From sequence record OL451225.1: a stretch of DNA of 64,000 nucleotides. One strand, 5' to 3'. Both the position numbers and the translations under genes were made by a program. Shown piece after piece: positions 7,555-11,099 of the stretch (positions are counted from its first letter, which is position 1; every line of letters begins with the position of its first letter). A model generated the notes under the pieces. The model ran no database searches. It had not been told where the DNA came from and saw nothing but the letters and a program-made list of their open reading frames with translations. This DNA is from Escherichia phage P896.

Positions 7555-7580
7555 CGAAAAAAGGACCGAAGCCCTTTTGT
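7555..7580 (-). terminator. Intrinsic terminator after DNA ligase
   Basis: Minus-strand RNA AAAAGGGC-UUCG-GUCCUUUU (one G.U pair) followed by a U-run; abuts the ligase stop codon. Confidence 0.55.
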
Positions 7581-9121
7581 TATTTTAATCCAGTCTTTGA
7601 CCAGTCGCCAAATACATCTTCGAATGTGTCTGCATGGTCTTTATCGAAACGGAACCCTTTGATAATCGGCAGGAACAATGCAACCGTATTATCTTTACGA
7701 GTCTCGGAAGTCAACCAACCATTACATTCACAGTCGGCAATCATTCCAACCAATTCGCCTTTACGGGCTTTAACCATCAAGGCTTCACGGTCCATTTCAT
7801 GACGCTCCTCAATCGGAATAGTAACCCATTTTTTGGTTTTCTTATCTTTAACTTGAGTTGTGTCTTTAAAACCAGAACCACAGTTATTTGTAATCTTACC
7901 ACAAGAAGAACGAAGCACAACACCACCAATCTTATTCGGGTCTTTATCGTGCTCGTAATATCCAATGATTTCCATTGCGATGTCAATTACTTCTTTGAAC
8001 TTGTACAAGTTCTTTGAGCGCTTGTTTTCCCAAATCGATGCCATGTTCTTAAGGATAATACCTTCAAGACCTTCATCCACATATTTCTTATAGATAACCT
8101 TCGCTTCATCGAGATTGTTAACAACATGGTTTTCAATCAGAATCATGCGGTCAAAACCATGCAGCACCACGTTATCTGCAATCATCTTTTCCAGAACAGC
8201 AAAACGCACATCGTATTTTAACGGATTGAGTATCTTAACATCAGAATAGACTTCAATCAATGGAACATAATCCCAAACCTGGAATTTCATGCAAGAAGCT
8301 TCTGCTGCAGAAATAGTTCCTTTCAATGATTTGTTTGCCAGACCATTTGAAAAGGTTCTTGATTCCGCGAATTCTGCGAATTCTTTTGCCTTACTAAGCT
8401 CAGGCATATCGTCAAAAAGGAAGCTCAAACCATCATTCTGGGGAGCTATTTTCTGTTCATGATATACTAACTCGCCGTCAATCAAAACGCCCTCAGGATG
8501 TCTCTCACGCGCTTCACGGGTAGCTTCAATCAATTCCTTTTTAAGGAGGTCAAGCTTGAGGTATTCGTTGCCAGCTCGGGATAACAATCGAACATCATCC
8601 AACTCATCGCCACGAACTTCTGCAAAACACCGAGCGCCGTCGGCTTTCAATTGTGCAAAGGCCGGGAACTTAATGTTCTTGGCAATACCGGCTTCATCAT
8701 AGGAAGAAGCGAGCATCTGCGGTTGTTCAGGAATTAAACCTTTCCAAACCTTATTTGCAATTGATACGGATGCCCCGCATTCCAGGTCACGCATCATAAC
8801 ACGCCGCAGGACTTCAACATCTGCTTTTTTACCATCAGCAATATAGCCAGATAATTCCTCGATTGCAGCATTACCTGTTAATTTACGAGAGGCTAATGTG
8901 AATTCAATAAAGTCAAGCATATCATCGATATTCAGCATACCAAAGCTTTGAGTCGTTGTCCCAGGTTTTGGCCATTTCTTAATATAGAACTGGATGCCTT
9001 TGGAATATGTCAAACGATACACACGTTTGAGGGTTTCATTGTCAGAATACGATTCCAGAATAGCTTGTTTCTCTTTAGTAGAATCGGTTGCAGCAATTTC
9101 ATTTAAAATATCTAAAATCAT
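7580..9121 (-). CDS. 30: ATP-dependent DNA ligase gp30
   Basis: 513 aa; N-terminus and body closely resemble T4 DNA ligase (ILNEIA...KRVYRLTYS, KADGARC adenylation motif, ...FEDVFGD). Confidence 0.95.
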   Translation of the reverse strand: MILDILNEIAATDSTKEKQAILESYSDNETLKRVYRLTYSKGIQFYIKKWPKPGTTTQSFGMLNIDDMLDFIEFTLASRKLTGNAAIEELSGYIADGKKADVEVLRRVMMRDLECGASVSIANKVWKGLIPEQPQMLASSYDEAGIAKNIKFPAFAQLKADGARCFAEVRGDELDDVRLLSRAGNEYLKLDLLKKELIEATREARERHPEGVLIDGELVYHEQKIAPQNDGLSFLFDDMPELSKAKEFAEFAESRTFSNGLANKSLKGTISAAEASCMKFQVWDYVPLIEVYSDVKILNPLKYDVRFAVLEKMIADNVVLHGFDRMILIENHVVNNLDEAKVIYKKYVDEGLEGIILKNMASIWENKRSKNLYKFKEVIDIAMEIIGYYEHDKDPNKIGGVVLRSSCGKITNNCGSGFKDTTQVKDKKTKKWVTIPIEERHEMDREALMVKARKGELVGMIADCECNGWLTSETRKDNTVALFLPIIKGFRFDKDHADTFEDVFGDWSKTGLK

Positions 9122-9396
9122 TTAATATCTCTTCTGGTCATAAAGATTCTATTATAAGCTACTTCATCTTGAAGCTCATTTAAAGTCTTTTGATATGTAT
9201 TAATCCAACGTCTACCACGAGAGGTTGTTACAAAATACTCGGAGATGTAAATAAATCCTTGTTCAACACATTCCATGAATATTTTTTCATATCTAGCTTG
9301 GTTGTATAAAGGCTTTGCTCGTAAGAACTGTGTCACATTCCCGTAATCATGGGTAGAACATCTTCCGTCTGAAATATCATGAACGACAAACATCAA
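9118..9396 (-). CDS. Hypothetical protein (30.1-like position)
   Basis: 92-aa ORF translationally coupled to its neighbours. Confidence 0.5.
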   Translation of the reverse strand: MMFVVHDISDGRCSTHDYGNVTQFLRAKPLYNQARYEKIFMECVEQGFIYISEYFVTTSRGRRWINTYQKTLNELQDEVAYNRIFMTRRDIK

Positions 9397-10217
9397 TTAC
9401 CCCCTTGGCCACCGGTCGGTTGGTTGTACCAATATTCAATGCCAGTACCTACGCGTGGACCATATTGATATGGATATGCTGGATTATAACCAGGAGTCCA
9501 TGGTTGACCTGGTTGCCAGCCTTGTTGCATTTGTTGTTGAAGACGGCGAGTTTCACGAAACAGCTCTTCCAGTTTACGGAGTTCATCAGGGGTGAATTCT
9601 GGTTTGACTGGTTCATCTTTGTGTTTCAGTTTAAGCTGCCCAGCTACATCGTCCCAATTAAAAACTTTGGAAGCTGTTTTAGGAATAGCATCACGTTCAC
9701 CACGAGCCATCCAATAAACCGGAATCTCAAGGATTTCACTCGCATGGTCGCAATGGTGTGCAAGGTCATCAATATAACAAACGACATTATATTTGGTCTT
9801 CGCCTTCTGGAATAACTCTTCTTTAGAAGCTGTATGGCCGCACATCATCACTTCTTTAAATGCACCAGGGAACAAAGCATTCAGGTTGAATTGACGATTC
9901 AGACGGGCGTCAATGGAATCACCCAGAGCCGTAACAGCCACAAAATCATATTGCTCTTTGAGGTTATTAATAACCCTTAACGCATCTGCGTAAGGAGACA
10001 AATAGCGAATAAAATCTGAACAGTTATATTTCTCAATCAACTGTGCTCCCAACTCTTCATCACAATTGAACAGTTTACCAGGGGTCACAAATTTTTCATC
10101 CTGAATCATCTTAAGGATATGTTCCAGGGGTAAATTATATTTTTGGGCGAAATAAGGCAAGCCAGACTGCCATGACAAACATACGCCATCAATATCTGTT
10201 AAAATAACGGGTTTCAT
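9393..10217 (-). CDS. HAD-like (DxDG) putative nucleotidase/phosphatase with Q/P/G/Y-rich C-terminal tail
   Basis: N-terminal ILTDIDGV motif typical of HAD phosphatases and 5'(3')-deoxyribonucleotidases; C-terminal about 60 aa are low complexity (QQQMQQGWQPGQPWTPGYNPAYPYQYGP...GGQGGN). Confidence 0.55.
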   Translation of the reverse strand: MKPVILTDIDGVCLSWQSGLPYFAQKYNLPLEHILKMIQDEKFVTPGKLFNCDEELGAQLIEKYNCSDFIRYLSPYADALRVINNLKEQYDFVAVTALGDSIDARLNRQFNLNALFPGAFKEVMMCGHTASKEELFQKAKTKYNVVCYIDDLAHHCDHASEILEIPVYWMARGERDAIPKTASKVFNWDDVAGQLKLKHKDEPVKPEFTPDELRKLEELFRETRRLQQQMQQGWQPGQPWTPGYNPAYPYQYGPRVGTGIEYWYNQPTGGQGGN

Positions 10218-10699
10218 AATGCATCTCTCAATTGGTTAAGTATGTCAATAAATTCTTGTTCAGTCAATATTGTATCATGAACAGTAAGGTGACTCGCCAT
10301 CGAATGCTTTAAAACTTTGCCCTTTGTAGCTTGTAATGCGTCGCGGAATCCTTTGTTTTGGAGCGCTGCTTCAAAATAAGCATTTGTATACAACTCTTTC
10401 CATGATGTAGAGTATCTTGAAAAGGGAATTCCAAGCCAGAAAAGCGTCCCACGGTCCGCAGCTCTCGCATAAGCTCTTCCACTTTGCTGGGCGGCCAGGC
10501 CGGACATCCCAAATATACGTTTTTGTTGTTCATGATTTCTCACCTTACACCCTTGCAGGAAGCCTTCAAGACCTCCAAACTGGATGCCCTCCATAACAAA
10601 AGGCCATTTAGCAAAGTTACTTAATGCACATGATGGCCATGGGAAATTGCTTCTGATTTCTAACTCAGACATCTTTGACACTGATAATCTTGGTTGCAT
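10214..10699 (-). CDS. Hypothetical protein (30.3-like position)
   Basis: 161-aa ORF in the conserved gene-30 downstream block. Confidence 0.5.
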   Translation of the reverse strand: MQPRLSVSKMSELEIRSNFPWPSCALSNFAKWPFVMEGIQFGGLEGFLQGCKVRNHEQQKRIFGMSGLAAQQSGRAYARAADRGTLFWLGIPFSRYSTSWKELYTNAYFEAALQNKGFRDALQATKGKVLKHSMASHLTVHDTILTEQEFIDILNQLRDAL

Positions 10700-10877
10700 A
10701 CCACATACCGTGGTCCGGTAATCTGGATTTAATTGACCGCCCGCGATATGTTTTTCGCATTACAACAGTCTTAATAGCATCTTCATCACAAGCATATGGA
10801 GGTGATAAATCAATAACACGATAAGTAACTTCAACCATTTCCAAGCCAAACAGCTTTTTAAATAATTTCTTAATCAT
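10665..10877 (-). CDS. Small hypothetical protein, tandem paralog A
   Basis: 70 aa; clearly homologous to the adjacent 70-aa ORF (shared EMVEVTYRV.D.SP ... SIK.RLP..G.W ... IISVKD). Confidence 0.5.
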   Translation of the reverse strand: MIKKLFKKLFGLEMVEVTYRVIDLSPPYACDEDAIKTVVMRKTYRGRSIKSRLPDHGMWYATKIISVKDV

Positions 10878-10886
10878 GAAGGTTCC

Positions 10887-11099
10887 TTAAATATCTTTGA
10901 CGCTGATAATATATACATCAGCCCAATGACCATAACCAGGTAGACGGTCTTTAATAGATAATCCACCGTCAGATTTCAGCATTTTAATTGTTTTAGTATA
11001 TGGTTCAATATTTCGGGCCCATGGACTCACGTCAGTTACGCGATAAGTAACTTCAACCATTTCTGTTCCCAAAATTTTCTGAATCAGTTTCTTAAACAT
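10887..11099 (-). CDS. Small hypothetical protein, tandem paralog B
   Basis: 70 aa; paralog of 10665..10877. Confidence 0.5.
   Translation of the reverse strand: MFKKLIQKILGTEMVEVTYRVTDVSPWARNIEPYTKTIKMLKSDGGLSIKDRLPGYGHWADVYIISVKDI

What the first reader, a model, noticed from the sequence alone, without database searches (positions are those of the whole stretch)
9393..10217. HAD-family protein with a Q/P/G/Y-rich low-complexity C-terminal tail
The N-terminus carries the HAD catalytic signature ILTDIDGV, consistent with a nucleotidase or phosphatase. The last 60 residues or so are a glutamine/proline/glycine/tyrosine-rich low-complexity segment, unusual for a phage metabolic enzyme. It might mediate condensate-like self-association or host protein binding.
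Basis: partly seen in the sequence, partly recalled or inferred. Interest (0 to 1): 0.4.

Follow-up and report, generated by a model that had tools for sequence, protein, structure and literature searches.

The report
T4 gp30.2 phosphatase with docking tail
This gene is the T4 gp30.2 homologue, an apparently active HAD-type phosphatase, and its odd Q/P/G/Y-rich tail is a strongly conserved peptide module that an unrelated phage family also carries on a different protein beside its DNA ligase gene, so it is probably a docking tag.

Summary
Window 9393-10217 (minus strand) encodes a 274-aa protein. It is the gp30.2 orthologue (phrog_420) of a Gaprivervirus-type T-even phage and is translationally coupled in the run 30.3 (AdfN) - 30.2 - 30.1 - 30 (DNA ligase).

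Residues 1-200 form a confidently modelled HAD fold with a C1 helical cap. All four catalytic motifs are invariant or nearly so in 56 homologues (D8/D10, T96, K132, D150/D151). The closest solved folds include 5'(3')-deoxyribonucleotidases, but no Pfam model reaches threshold, so the subfamily and the substrate stay open.

The tail has three parts: a confident helix (210-233), a predicted-disordered stretch (234-274), and two conserved motifs, W-x-P-G and G-x-G-I-E-Y-[WL]-x-x-[QR]-P-T. Its composition is an outlier: 66% Q+P+G+Y against at most 30% for any other ORF. The Q/G richness is specific to this lineage. Purifying selection on the tail is as strong as on the core (pN/pS 0.04 vs 0.03).

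The same module ends an unrelated zinc-knuckle protein encoded next to the DNA ligase of Salmonella phage 7-11-like podoviruses (BLASTP E 1e-6). I read it as a portable docking peptide, possibly tied to ligase. A condensate role is not supported as a family feature. The partner is unknown.

The parts
9393..10217 (-). gp30.2 orthologue, 274 aa plus stop (phrog_420, annotated 'unknown function')
   Evidence: ORF. phrog_420 E 1e-78. 96.7-99.6% identical to gp30.2 of VR7 and TH44 and 67% to RB14 (T4-like) gp30.2.
9633..10217 (-). HAD-fold catalytic core with C1 cap, residues 1-195
   Evidence: AF2 pLDDT 90-98. Foldseek PDB hits are all HAD hydrolases at probability 1.0.
10182..10205 (-). HAD motif I, ILTDIDGV (residues 5-12; D8 nucleophile, D10 acid/base)
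   Evidence: D8 and D10 are invariant. They align to N12/D14 of the 2jao D12N cdN variant.
9954..10181 (-). C1-type helical cap inserted after motif I (residues 13-88; helices at 16-26, 32-40, 46-49, 54-65, 68-72 and 77-86)
   Evidence: AF2 secondary structure.
9921..9947 (-). HAD motif II strand FVAVTALGD (T96)
   Evidence: T96 is conserved in at least 90% of sequences and lies at the end of strand 91-96.
9822..9824 (-). HAD motif III lysine K132
   Evidence: Invariant. It precedes helix 133-142.
9762..9785 (-). HAD motif IV strand VVCYIDDL (D150, D151)
   Evidence: D150 and D151 are invariant, at the end of strand 145-150.
9519..9590 (-). Amphipathic helix of the C-terminal extension (residues 210-233, PDELRKLEELFRETRRLQQQMQQG)
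   Evidence: AF2 helix 210-233, block pLDDT 93. pN/pS 0.06 for residues 196-233. By eye, most long tails start with a charged, helix-like stretch.
9396..9518 (-). Predicted-disordered Q/P/G/Y-rich tail (residues 234-274)
   Evidence: pLDDT 47-59. 66% Q+P+G+Y in the last 50 residues. pN/pS 0.043 with pS 0.24.
9480..9500 (-). Tail motif M1, W240-T-P-G-Y-N-P246 (family pattern W-[RKV]-x-P-G)
   Evidence: Tail alignments. PWRNPG in phage 7-11 gp042 and RPWRD in pSal-SNUABM-01_046.
9414..9449 (-). Tail motif M2, G257-TGIEYWYNQPT268 (family pattern G-x-G-[IV]-E-Y-[WL]-x-x-[QR]-P-T)
   Evidence: E, Y and T are invariant in 14 class-A tails. Codons differ between genera. The identical peptide occurs in Grimontviridae proteins and in P0183.
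10214..10699 (-). Upstream neighbour gp30.3 = AdfN (NADAR ADP-ribosylglycohydrolase, anti-DarTG1). The likely true start is the second ATG at 10672. Its stop overlaps the 30.2 start (ATGA).
   Evidence: Pfam Phage_30_3 E 7.7e-64. Function from PMC11825919.
9118..9393 (-). Downstream neighbour gp30.1 (DUF3045, phrog_2054, unknown function). Its ATG overlaps the 30.2 stop (TGATG).
7580..9121 (-). gp30 ATP-dependent DNA ligase, 513 aa. Its start overlaps the 30.1 stop.
   Evidence: Pfam DNA_ligase_A_M E 2.4e-28. Synteny.

Best explanation
The gene encodes the gp30.2 orthologue of a Gaprivervirus-type T-even phage. Residues 1-200 are a catalytically intact, C1-capped HAD-superfamily phosphomonoesterase. 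This fold and cap type normally act on small phosphorylated metabolites such as (deoxy)nucleotides, but the substrate is inferred, not shown. The gene is co-translated with AdfN (30.3), gp30.1 and DNA ligase. The C-terminal ~80 residues are an appended, lineage-variable extension with three parts: a helix, a proline/aromatic-rich flexible segment, and a terminal peptide module (W-x-P-G ... G-x-G-I-E-Y-[W/L]-x-x-[Q/R]-P-T). I propose that this module is a short-linear-motif docking tag. It would tether the phosphatase to a partner macromolecule, in the manner of the 'folded domain - flexible linker - C-terminal peptide' design of SspB, SSB or FtsZ. The same module also sits on an unrelated zinc-knuckle protein encoded next to the DNA ligase of 7-11-like podoviruses. 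The best guess for the partner is therefore the ligase-centred nick-sealing/replication machinery, meaning the phage ligase itself or a factor it works with. Shown: the fold, the intact motifs, the synteny, the conservation and selection on the tail, and the sharing of the module. Inferred: phosphatase activity, the substrate class, the docking function and the partner.
For: Identity and context:
- phrog_420 E 1e-78.
- 1439 phage records carry homologues.
- The order 30.3-30.2-30.1-30 has overlapping stops and starts.

HAD core:
- AF2 mean pLDDT is 88.8, with the core above 90.
- Foldseek probability is 1.0 to HAD hydrolases; cdN-type nucleotidases give the best target TM, 0.64-0.70.
- D8, D10, K132, D150 and D151 are invariant, and T96 is at least 90% conserved.

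The tail is functional:
- Pooled pN/pS is 0.043 for the tail against 0.033 for the core, with equal or higher pS (0.24 vs 0.20) among five Gaprivervirus genes.
- M1 and M2 are conserved from T4 to Karamvirus, with different codons.
- AF2 does not dock the tail on the core (pLDDT 47-59).

The module is portable:
- The metagenomic protein P0183 matches the motif profile at E 7e-7 against 1.84 billion proteins. It shares YGVGTGIEYWYNQPT with VR7 gp30.2, 15 of 15 residues, while 8 of 15 codons differ.
- Its cultured homologues, 7-11 gp042 and pSal-SNUABM-01_046, carry PWRNPG..GGIEYWYNQPTAIGGQ and GGIEYWYNQPTALTGGQGG.
- BLASTP of the query against them gives E 9e-6 and 1e-6.

Link to ligase:
- The Grimontviridae gene lies beside the ligase gene in every record examined, with coordinates overlapping in the four fetched loci.
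- 30.2 lies directly upstream of ligase, or one small gene away, in Tevenvirinae, RB43, Acinetobacter and Aeromonas T4-like phages.
Against: - No partner has been identified, and no interaction test could be run.
- Only two protein families carry the module. Adjacency to ligase in both could be coincidence, roughly 1-3% by gene count judged post hoc.
- About half of the gp30.2 clusters have no long tail (57 of 117). Other tail classes lack M2. The tail is therefore not needed for the core function and may do different things in different lineages.
- No Pfam or NCBIfam model reaches threshold for the core, so enzymatic activity is inferred from motifs only.
- No bacterial genome among 185,579 species representatives carries the motif, so there is no sign that it mimics a host protein.
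Confidence: 0.5

Rival explanations
1. Condensate or prion-like tail. The Q/P/G/Y-rich segment drives multivalent self-association or phase separation and concentrates the enzyme in a phage compartment.
For: The composition is extreme for this window. The segment is predicted disordered. Phage P479 has expanded an 8-residue unit, NPAYPYQY x2, which is oligopeptide-repeat behaviour. The related metagenomic protein P0183 also has a G/S/Y-rich end.
Against: Q/N/G richness is 0.30 only in this lineage and 0.08-0.22 in the other long tails, including T4's at 0.20. What is conserved is specific motif sequence, with pN/pS 0.04. Composition-driven domains usually tolerate substitution and shuffling. 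The biased segment is only 41 residues long.
Confidence: 0.12
2. Intramolecular or oligomeric regulatory arm. The tail folds back on the cap or active site, acting as an autoinhibitor or substrate-specificity element, or wraps a neighbouring protomer to build a dimer or tetramer.
For: Helix 210-233 is modelled with high confidence (pLDDT 93), which suggests it packs on the core. Many HAD nucleotidases are oligomers (general knowledge). Strong selection on the tail is compatible with this reading.
Against: AF2, given an alignment that includes about 14 class-A tails, does not place residues 234-274 on the core (pLDDT 47-59). The same module sits on a zinc-knuckle protein that has no HAD domain. 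That is hard to reconcile with a HAD-specific intramolecular role. Tail-less orthologues keep all catalytic motifs.
Confidence: 0.15
3. Nascent-peptide or translational-coupling element. The proline/aromatic-rich C-terminal peptide acts inside the ribosome tunnel and tunes termination-reinitiation onto the overlapping 30.1 and ligase cistrons.
For: The 30.2 stop overlaps the 30.1 start (TGATG), and the ligase start overlaps the 30.1 stop. The Grimontviridae carrier also overlaps the ligase gene. Conservation at the amino-acid level alone would fit.
Against: The distance from the motif to the stop codon varies from 4 to 10 residues among 30.2 genes, and in P0183 the motif is internal, at 80-100 of 152. 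In Grimontviridae the carrier lies downstream of ligase, not upstream. No known arrest motif is present (my own knowledge, not tested).
Confidence: 0.05
4. DNA-end-healing enzyme. The HAD domain is a DNA 3'-phosphatase working with ligase, as in PNKP or LigD-PE, and the aromatic tail binds nicked or single-stranded DNA.
For: Synteny with ATP-dependent ligase is conserved. There are weak matches to polynucleotide kinase/phosphatase families: phrog_415 at E 0.0012 and BFVD kinase-phosphatase hits. The tail is rich in aromatic residues.
Against: The model has a large C1 helical cap. By general HAD knowledge, such a cap encloses the active site and goes with small-molecule substrates, whereas macromolecule-directed HADs such as PNKP are capless. 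From my memory of the classical pseT genetics, T4 3'-phosphatase activity is accounted for by PseT; this was not checked here.
Confidence: 0.1

Closest known systems
Bacteriophage T4 gp30.2 family (phrog_420; 'hypothetical protein 30.2')
   Same: Orthologue: 67% identity to RB14 (T4-like) gp30.2 over 99% of the length, the same position between 30.3 and 30.1/ligase, and a homologous tail with motifs M1 and M2.
   Different: The tail of this lineage is much richer in Q and G. It carries the W-Y-N variant of M2 and a GGQGGN end, which otherwise appear only in Grimontviridae proteins. No experimental function for the family turned up in the held literature.
Cytosolic/mitochondrial 5'(3')-deoxyribonucleotidases (cdN/mdN; Pfam NT5C, PF06941; PDB 2jao, 2i7d, 3bwv)
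   Same: HAD fold with a helical C1 cap, a DxDGV motif I, similar size (about 200 aa), and the best target-normalised TM-scores (0.64-0.70).
   Different: Sequence identity is 15-19%. The query does not match NT5C, and only 5 of 56 relatives do so weakly. Generic HADs (YfnB, dehalogenases, epoxysuccinate hydrolase) score equally well by E-value. The nucleotidases have no C-terminal extension.
Grimontviridae ligase-adjacent zinc-knuckle proteins (phrog_38244; Salmonella phage 7-11 gp042, pSal-SNUABM-01_046)
   Same: They carry the same C-terminal module (PWRNPG ... GGIEYWYNQPT ... GGQ(GG)). The module is present in some members and absent in others. The gene is fused by overlap to an ATP-dependent DNA ligase gene.
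   Different: The N-terminal part is unrelated: helices plus CxxCG...GAH[FY]C, with no HAD domain. The gene lies downstream rather than upstream of ligase. The phages are podoviruses of 75-90 kb.
Tethering designs 'folded domain - disordered linker - short C-terminal peptide' (E. coli SspB XB peptide, SSB acidic tip, FtsZ C-terminal peptide)
   Same: The architecture matches: a conserved short motif at the end of a variable, proline/glycine-rich disordered linker. The motif is under stronger constraint than the linker. This is an analogy to how it may work, drawn from general knowledge.
   Different: There is no sequence similarity to those peptides, and no partner is known here. Membership of these families is not claimed.
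Ligase plus end-healing phosphoesterase pairings (T4 Pnkp with RNA ligase 1, LigD phosphoesterase domain, mammalian PNKP-XRCC1/XRCC4)
   Same: A phosphatase-fold enzyme is genetically coupled to a polynucleotide ligase.
   Different: Those phosphatases are capless HADs or belong to other folds, and they act on polynucleotide ends. gp30.2 has a C1 cap. No activity data exist.

Membership tests
HAD superfamily phosphatases | Rossmann-like alpha/beta core fold | tested here: met
   AF2 pLDDT is above 90 over residues 1-200 with alternating strands and helices. 134 PDB chains match at E <= 0.001, and the listed top 50 are HAD-fold hydrolases or engineered derivatives.
HAD superfamily phosphatases | Motif I DxD (nucleophile plus acid/base Asp, the mark of phosphotransferases rather than dehalogenases) | tested here: met
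   D8-I-D10 is invariant in 56 sequences and aligns to the catalytic Asp pair of 2jao.
HAD superfamily phosphatases | Motifs II (S/T), III (K/R) and IV (DD or ExD) in the canonical order and on the canonical structural elements | tested here: met
   T96 is at the end of strand 91-96. K132 precedes helix 133-142. D150 and D151 are at the end of strand 145-150.
HAD superfamily phosphatases | Match to a curated HAD sequence model above threshold | tested here: not met
   HAD_2 scores 14.2 bits against a cut-off of 23.8. NCBIfam gives no hit. PDB profile search gives E 0.4. Membership rests on fold and motifs, not on curated HMMs.
HAD superfamily phosphatases | Mg-dependent phosphomonoesterase activity | not testable with these tools
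   Needs an enzyme assay.
NT5C 5'(3')-deoxyribonucleotidase family (PF06941) | Match to PF06941 | tested here: not met
   The query has no hit. 5 of 56 relatives hit weakly, best E 0.0029.
NT5C 5'(3')-deoxyribonucleotidase family (PF06941) | C1 helical cap plus DxDGV motif I, with closest structural similarity to cdN/mdN | tested here: inconclusive
NT5C 5'(3')-deoxyribonucleotidase family (PF06941) | Specificity for dNMPs (base-stacking cap residues, activity) | not tested
   No coordinates were available for inspection, and no assay was possible.
T4 gp30.2 family (phrog_420) | Full-length sequence match and conserved position upstream of 30.1 and DNA ligase | tested here: met
   phrog_420 E 1e-78 over residues 1-268. 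Synteny.
Prion-like or condensate-forming low-complexity domain | Compositional bias conserved across orthologues while the sequence is free to vary | tested here: not met
   The Q/N/G fraction is 0.30 here against 0.08-0.22 elsewhere. Sequence motifs are conserved, and pN/pS is 0.043.
Prion-like or condensate-forming low-complexity domain | Intrinsic disorder and low sequence entropy | tested here: met
   pLDDT 47-59 for residues 241-274. Minimum entropy 1.78 bits.
Short linear motif / docking peptide | A short conserved island inside a disordered, otherwise variable region, conserved at the protein level and not the DNA level | tested here: met
   E, Y and T are invariant and P, G and P nearly so in 14 tails. 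Codons differ between genera. pS of the tail is at least that of the core.
Short linear motif / docking peptide | Recurrence on unrelated proteins | tested here: met
   The phrog_38244 proteins of 7-11-like phages and P0183. A second apparent carrier, small metagenomic ORFs, was shown to be an artefact.
Short linear motif / docking peptide | A defined binding partner | not testable with these tools
No interaction data were found in the held literature.

The most novel reading that the evidence does not exclude
The W-x-P-G ... G-I-E-Y-[W/L]-x-x-Q-P-T peptide is a recruitment tag for phage ATP-dependent DNA ligase, or for the clamp or nick site it works on. On this reading, enterobacterial phages of unrelated families equip their ligase with accessory proteins through one shared peptide: a HAD phosphatase in T-even phages and a zinc-knuckle nick or DNA binder in 7-11-like phages. 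Together they would form a previously unrecognised phage nick-processing complex.
Probability: 0.2. Interest if true: 0.7.

Novelty: new variant of a known kind. Interest (0 to 1): 0.45.

Why it matters
gp30.2 is among the widely conserved genes of T4-like phages that still have no function: 1439 of 50,697 phage records carry a homologue. It sits between an anti-defence enzyme (AdfN) and DNA ligase.

This work gives three concrete handles on it. The catalytic core looks intact. The odd tail is under selection as strong as the core. The terminal peptide is shared with a ligase-adjacent protein of an unrelated phage family. In practice this offers a 12-residue peptide to use as bait and two point mutations to test.

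If the partner proves to be ligase or a replication hub, it would reveal accessory factors for T4 DNA ligase, one of the most used enzymes in molecular biology. If the partner is a host protein, it adds a new host-takeover motif. If neither holds, the finding remains an ordinary HAD enzyme with a lineage-specific appendage.

Tried and rejected
1. Small metagenomic 'proteins' ending in ...LTGGILPPSEP..GTGIEYLSHQPTSK.
- They surfaced at E 0.5-5 and at first looked like a second set of carriers of the tail motif. I rejected them.
- The shared C-terminal 'module' is the translation of a repeated, structured, mostly non-coding DNA element. It has a 16-bp stem with 3 compensatory pairs, and conservation runs past the stop codon.
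- pN/pS over the module is 0.61.
- The element occurs in more than 120 metagenome contigs, with up to 4 copies per 2.7 kb.
- ORFs enter it in all three frames, or not at all.
- Its resemblance to the 30.2 motif is at chance level for the database size.

2. Motif conserved as DNA or RNA in 30.2: rejected. Codons differ between genera, pS in the tail is not reduced, and Rfam finds nothing in the window.

3. Tegunavirus 312-aa gp30.2 as a 30.2-30.1 fusion: not supported. There is no DUF3045 hit, and BLASTP gives E 0.65. Only the metagenomic P0022 is such a fusion, and it may be an assembly or frameshift artefact.

4. Obligatory link of 30.2 with AdfN (30.3): rejected. Karamvirus, Roth19-type and Gelderlandvirus phages lack 30.3 next to 30.2.

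5. Strict co-occurrence of the tail with gene 30.1: rejected. Dhakavirus NC-G has 30.1 but a short-tailed 30.2.

6. Host-protein mimicry: no exact back-translated match to GIEYWYNQPT or GTGIEYLxxQPT in representative genomes of 185,579 bacterial and archaeal species.

7. Further carriers:
- IMG/VR scans found only T4-like and 7-11-like contigs.
- tblastn against 50,697 phage records found only gp30.2 and Grimontviridae genes.

9. Literature: no paper in the held library discusses gp30.2. It is mentioned only as a map label in the AdfN paper.

10. A resemblance I recalled between proline/aromatic tails and GroEL-binding peptides or GroES mobile loops was tied mainly to the repeat-derived ORFs. 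It was not tested and carries no weight here.
Full report
**What is there.** The ORF at window 9393-10217 lies on the minus strand and encodes 274 aa. Its ATG overlaps the stop of the upstream gene (ATGA), and its stop overlaps the ATG of the downstream gene (TGATG). The local gene order, in the direction of transcription, is:
- 30.7 (Pfam Phage_T4_Gp30_7);
- a run of small genes;
- 30.3 (Pfam Phage_30_3, E 7.7e-64);
- this gene;
- 30.1 (DUF3045);
- gene 30, the ATP-dependent DNA ligase.

The 6-kb neighbourhood is 94-97% identical to Gaprivervirus phages such as SP18, VR7, VR20 and TH44. The protein is 96.7-99.6% identical to their gp30.2 and 67% identical to the T4-like RB14 gp30.2. It matches phrog_420 ('unknown function') at E 1e-78 over residues 1-268. 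So this is the gp30.2 orthologue of a T-even phage.

ILTDIDGV occupies residues 5-12. The last 50 residues are 66% Q+P+G+Y; the highest value for any other ORF of at least 100 aa in the window is 30%. The 12-residue entropy falls to 1.78 bits at residue 227, against a core mean of 3.13 bits.

**The N-terminal domain.**
- AlphaFold2 with a 56-sequence alignment gives mean pLDDT 88.8, with blocks of 90-98 over residues 1-200.
- Foldseek against the PDB returns 134 chains at E <= 0.001. The top 50 listed are HAD-fold hydrolases or enzymes engineered from them.
- Cytosolic 5'(3')-deoxyribonucleotidases and a staphylococcal deoxyribonucleotidase-like protein give the highest target-normalised TM-scores: 2jao 0.64, 2i7d 0.62-0.66, 3bwv 0.65-0.70.
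- Across 56 homologues, D8, D10, K132, D150 and D151 are invariant and T96 is at least 90% conserved. They sit where HAD motifs I-IV belong on the modelled strands (4-7, 91-96, 145-150) and on helix 133-142.
- HMMER aligns D8 and D10 to the catalytic Asp pair of mouse cdN.
- Six helices between strand 1 and strand 2 form a C1-type cap. By general knowledge of the superfamily, such a cap goes with small-molecule substrates.

Sequence models are weak:
- Pfam HAD_2 scores 14.2 bits against a cut-off of 23.8.
- NCBIfam finds nothing.
- Only 5 of 56 relatives touch NT5C.

I therefore accept 'HAD phosphatase with intact catalytic machinery'. 'Nucleotidase' I treat as a reasonable but untested guess. 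Several depositors have already annotated homologues as 5' nucleotidase, HAD hydrolase or 5'(3')-deoxyribonucleotidase, so this part is not new.

**Anatomy of the tail.** AF2 gives a confident helix at 210-233 (block pLDDT 93). From residue 241 onward, block pLDDT is 47-59. Among 117 sequence clusters of the family:
- 57 end within 40 residues of the core. These include Acinetobacter phages, RB43-type phages and Dhakavirus.
- 60 carry extensions of 43-151 residues that fall into several classes.

Proline enrichment is general in most long tails (0.08-0.17 against about 0.04 in the core). Q/N/G richness of 0.30 is peculiar to the query lineage; the others score 0.08-0.22. The query tail is homologous to those of T4, Karamvirus, Moonvirus and related genera. 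They share two motifs:
- M1, W-[RKV]-x-P-G (query W240-P246);
- M2, G-x-G-[IV]-E-Y-[WL]-x-x-[QR]-P-T (query G257-T268).

E, Y and T are invariant in 14 aligned tails.

**The tail is selected as protein.**
- The M2 codons differ between genera. The query has GGT ACT GGC ATT GAA TAT, RB14 has GGT GGC ATA GAG TAT TTG, and Pet-CM3-4 has GGG ACA GGT ATC GAA TAT CTG.
- Among five Gaprivervirus genes, pooled Nei-Gojobori ratios are 0.033 for the core, 0.061 for residues 196-233 and 0.043 for residues 234-274.
- Synonymous divergence in the tail (0.24) is no lower than in the core (0.20). This leaves little room for an overlapping nucleotide-level element.
- The low-complexity part still behaves like a repeat. 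Phage P479 has duplicated NPAYPYQY. VR7 has lost two residues and has a different last four.

**A false lead, resolved.** A profile of the tails retrieved small metagenomic proteins ending in ...GTGIEYLSHQPTSK. A follow-up search showed many unrelated N-termini joined to the same ~35-residue end, and the same N-termini joined to other ends. This looked like a portable peptide, but it is not.
- The DNA is conserved beyond the stop codon, and pN/pS over the module is 0.61.
- RNAalifold finds a 16-bp stem whose arms encode 'LHLTGG' and 'PTSK*', with three compensatory pairs in five sequences.
- The element is flanked by an inverted repeat, GCCGCCGAAC...GTTCGGCGG, that resembles integron attC ends. 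That comparison is my reading and was not tested.
- A metagenome scan found the element in more than 120 contigs, often 2-4 copies spaced 600-1000 bp apart.
- Of 155 copies, 119 have no ORF of at least 30 codons entering them. The rest are entered in all three frames.

These 'proteins' are read-through products of a repeat. Their match to the 30.2 motif (E about 0.5-5 for 5.8 billion sequences) is what chance allows.

**A real second carrier.** An exhaustive HMMER scan of 1.84 billion representatives with the motif profile also found P0183 at E 7e-7.
- P0183 is a 152-aa protein with YGVGTGIEYWYNQPT at residues 80-94. This is identical over 15 residues to VR7 gp30.2, while 8 of the 15 codons differ.
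- P0183 is a homologue of gp042 of Salmonella phage 7-11 and its relatives, 29% identical over residues 2-98. This is phrog_38244, unknown function.
- These proteins have N-terminal helices and a CxxCG...GAH[FY]C zinc-knuckle-like element.
- In Moazamivirus-type phages they have a C-terminal extension. In 7-11 it reads ...GGGIPWRNPGAGGIEYWYNQPTAIGGQTQ.... In pSal-SNUABM-01 it reads ...GRPWRDFLSGPGGIEYWYNQPTALTGGQGGIK....
- BLASTP with composition correction gives E 9e-6 (21 of 40 identical, spanning M1 to GGQ) and E 1e-6 against the query.
- Relatives in Cronobacter phage A24 and phage PKM.Lu.22.1 keep the zinc knuckle but lack the module. This mirrors the tail-present and tail-absent pattern of gp30.2.
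- The W-Y-N variant of M2 and the GGQGG end are shared specifically by Gaprivervirus and these podoviruses. This points to an old transfer of the module between phages of enteric bacteria.

**The ligase connection.** In every Grimontviridae record examined, the carrier gene lies next to the ATP-dependent DNA ligase gene, with overlapping coordinates in the four fetched loci. In T4-like phages, 30.2 lies immediately upstream of ligase, or is separated from it by one small gene:
- Tequatrovirus, Gaprivervirus, Karamvirus and Roth19-type phages, with one small gene (30.1 or a gene at its position) between;
- Dhakavirus;
- Gelderlandvirus and Tegunavirus;
- RB43 and an Acinetobacter phage;
- an Aeromonas phage, where the intervening gene is a 153-aa ORF that is not 30.1-like.

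Only the distant KVP40-type homologue sits elsewhere. By contrast, the link to 30.3/AdfN is not universal. AdfN's anti-DarTG1 role is described in PMC11825919. Two unrelated proteins that carry the same peptide and both sit at the ligase gene are unlikely by chance, roughly 1-3% by gene count, but this is a post hoc estimate from two cases.

**Interpretation.** The best-supported reading has two parts. The first is an active small-molecule HAD phosphatase. The second is a C-terminal extension that acts as a flexible arm ending in a docking peptide. The evidence for docking is that the module is conserved as protein, lies in a disordered context, is not placed on its own core by AF2, and is portable to a protein with no HAD domain. 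The partner is unknown. The ligase-centred machinery is the best lead, at about 0.2 for ligase or its immediate co-workers.

But it does not explain what is conserved.
- An intramolecular or oligomeric role, a DNA-end phosphatase role and a nascent-peptide role are listed as rivals, each with its test.
- I could not run any interaction prediction.
- I found no host protein with the motif and no further carriers in cultured phages or IMG/VR.

**Verdict.**
- The HAD call is right but already present in public annotations.
- The tail is real, unusual in composition and clearly functional.
- Its conserved property is a specific peptide module shared with a ligase-adjacent protein of an unrelated phage family, not low complexity as such.
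- This makes it a new variant of a known kind, an enzyme with an appended short-linear-motif tail. It is of moderate interest and offers a concrete, testable lead.

Noticed in passing
L001:1826-1950; L004:786-930; L026:5303-5440; L088:146-238, 807-899, 1463-1555, 2266-2357; also L031-L110 and further listed loci: A highly repeated structured DNA element of about 110-135 nt lies at the 3' ends of small genes in metagenomic contigs; the five inspected carry phage-type genes. It has a 16-bp stem with compensatory changes and outer inverted repeats GCCGCCGAAC/GTTCGGCGG that resemble integron attC R''/R' sites. Up to 4 copies occur per 2.7 kb. There is no Rfam match, and no match in representative genomes of 185,579 species or in IMG/VR. 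Gene callers translate it into spurious conserved C-termini (...LTGGILPPSEP..GTGIEYLSHQPTSK).
   Followed up: partly
window 10214-10699 (-): The upstream gene is the gp30.3/AdfN homologue, a NADAR ADP-ribosylglycohydrolase that counters DarTG1 (PMC11825919). The ORF as listed has 9 extra N-terminal residues compared with SP18 gp30.3, so the likely start is at 10672. That paper notes AdfN may need another T-even protein to work fully. The co-translated gp30.2 is an untested candidate.
   Followed up: partly
window 10665-10877 (-) and 10887-11099 (-): Two tandem 70-aa paralogues, 54% identical (BLASTP E 9e-23), occupy the position where SP18 has a single gp30.4. This looks like a local gene duplication in this phage.
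   Followed up: partly
L017:1873-2721 (phage P479) and L013:101-913 (VR7): There is indel dynamics inside the tail. P479 has a tandem duplication of the 8-residue unit NPAYPYQY (282 aa). VR7 lacks 'PR' before motif M2 and ends ...QPTCGRG (270 aa). Motif M2 itself is untouched.
   Followed up: yes
P0022 (302 aa, from a 1.4-kb metagenomic contig): A tail-less gp30.2 core is fused in frame to a DUF3045 (gp30.1) domain (Pfam E 8e-15 at residues 230-295). It is either a natural fusion that hints at a 30.2-30.1 functional link, or a frameshift or assembly artefact.
   Followed up: partly
window 7580-9121 (-): The DNA ligase of this lineage is 513 aa (510-518 in relatives), against 487 aa in RB14 and 481-484 aa in Karamvirus. 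By eye, the extra residues lie mainly in the C-terminal third (...KDTTQVKDKKTKKWVTIPIEERHEMDREALMVKARKGE...).
   Followed up: no
L020:3001-4708 (Vibrio phage VH1_2019, KVP40-like): The distant gp30.2 homologue (33% identity, no tail) is not next to ligase. It sits beside a radical-SAM protein and a QueE-like 7-carboxy-7-deazaguanine synthase gene, which suggests a link to nucleotide or base modification in that lineage.
   Followed up: no
L009:12175-12831: A 61-kb metagenomic phage contig with T7-like replication genes carries a Gad2-family (anti-Gabija) gene inside a long array of small early genes.
   Followed up: no
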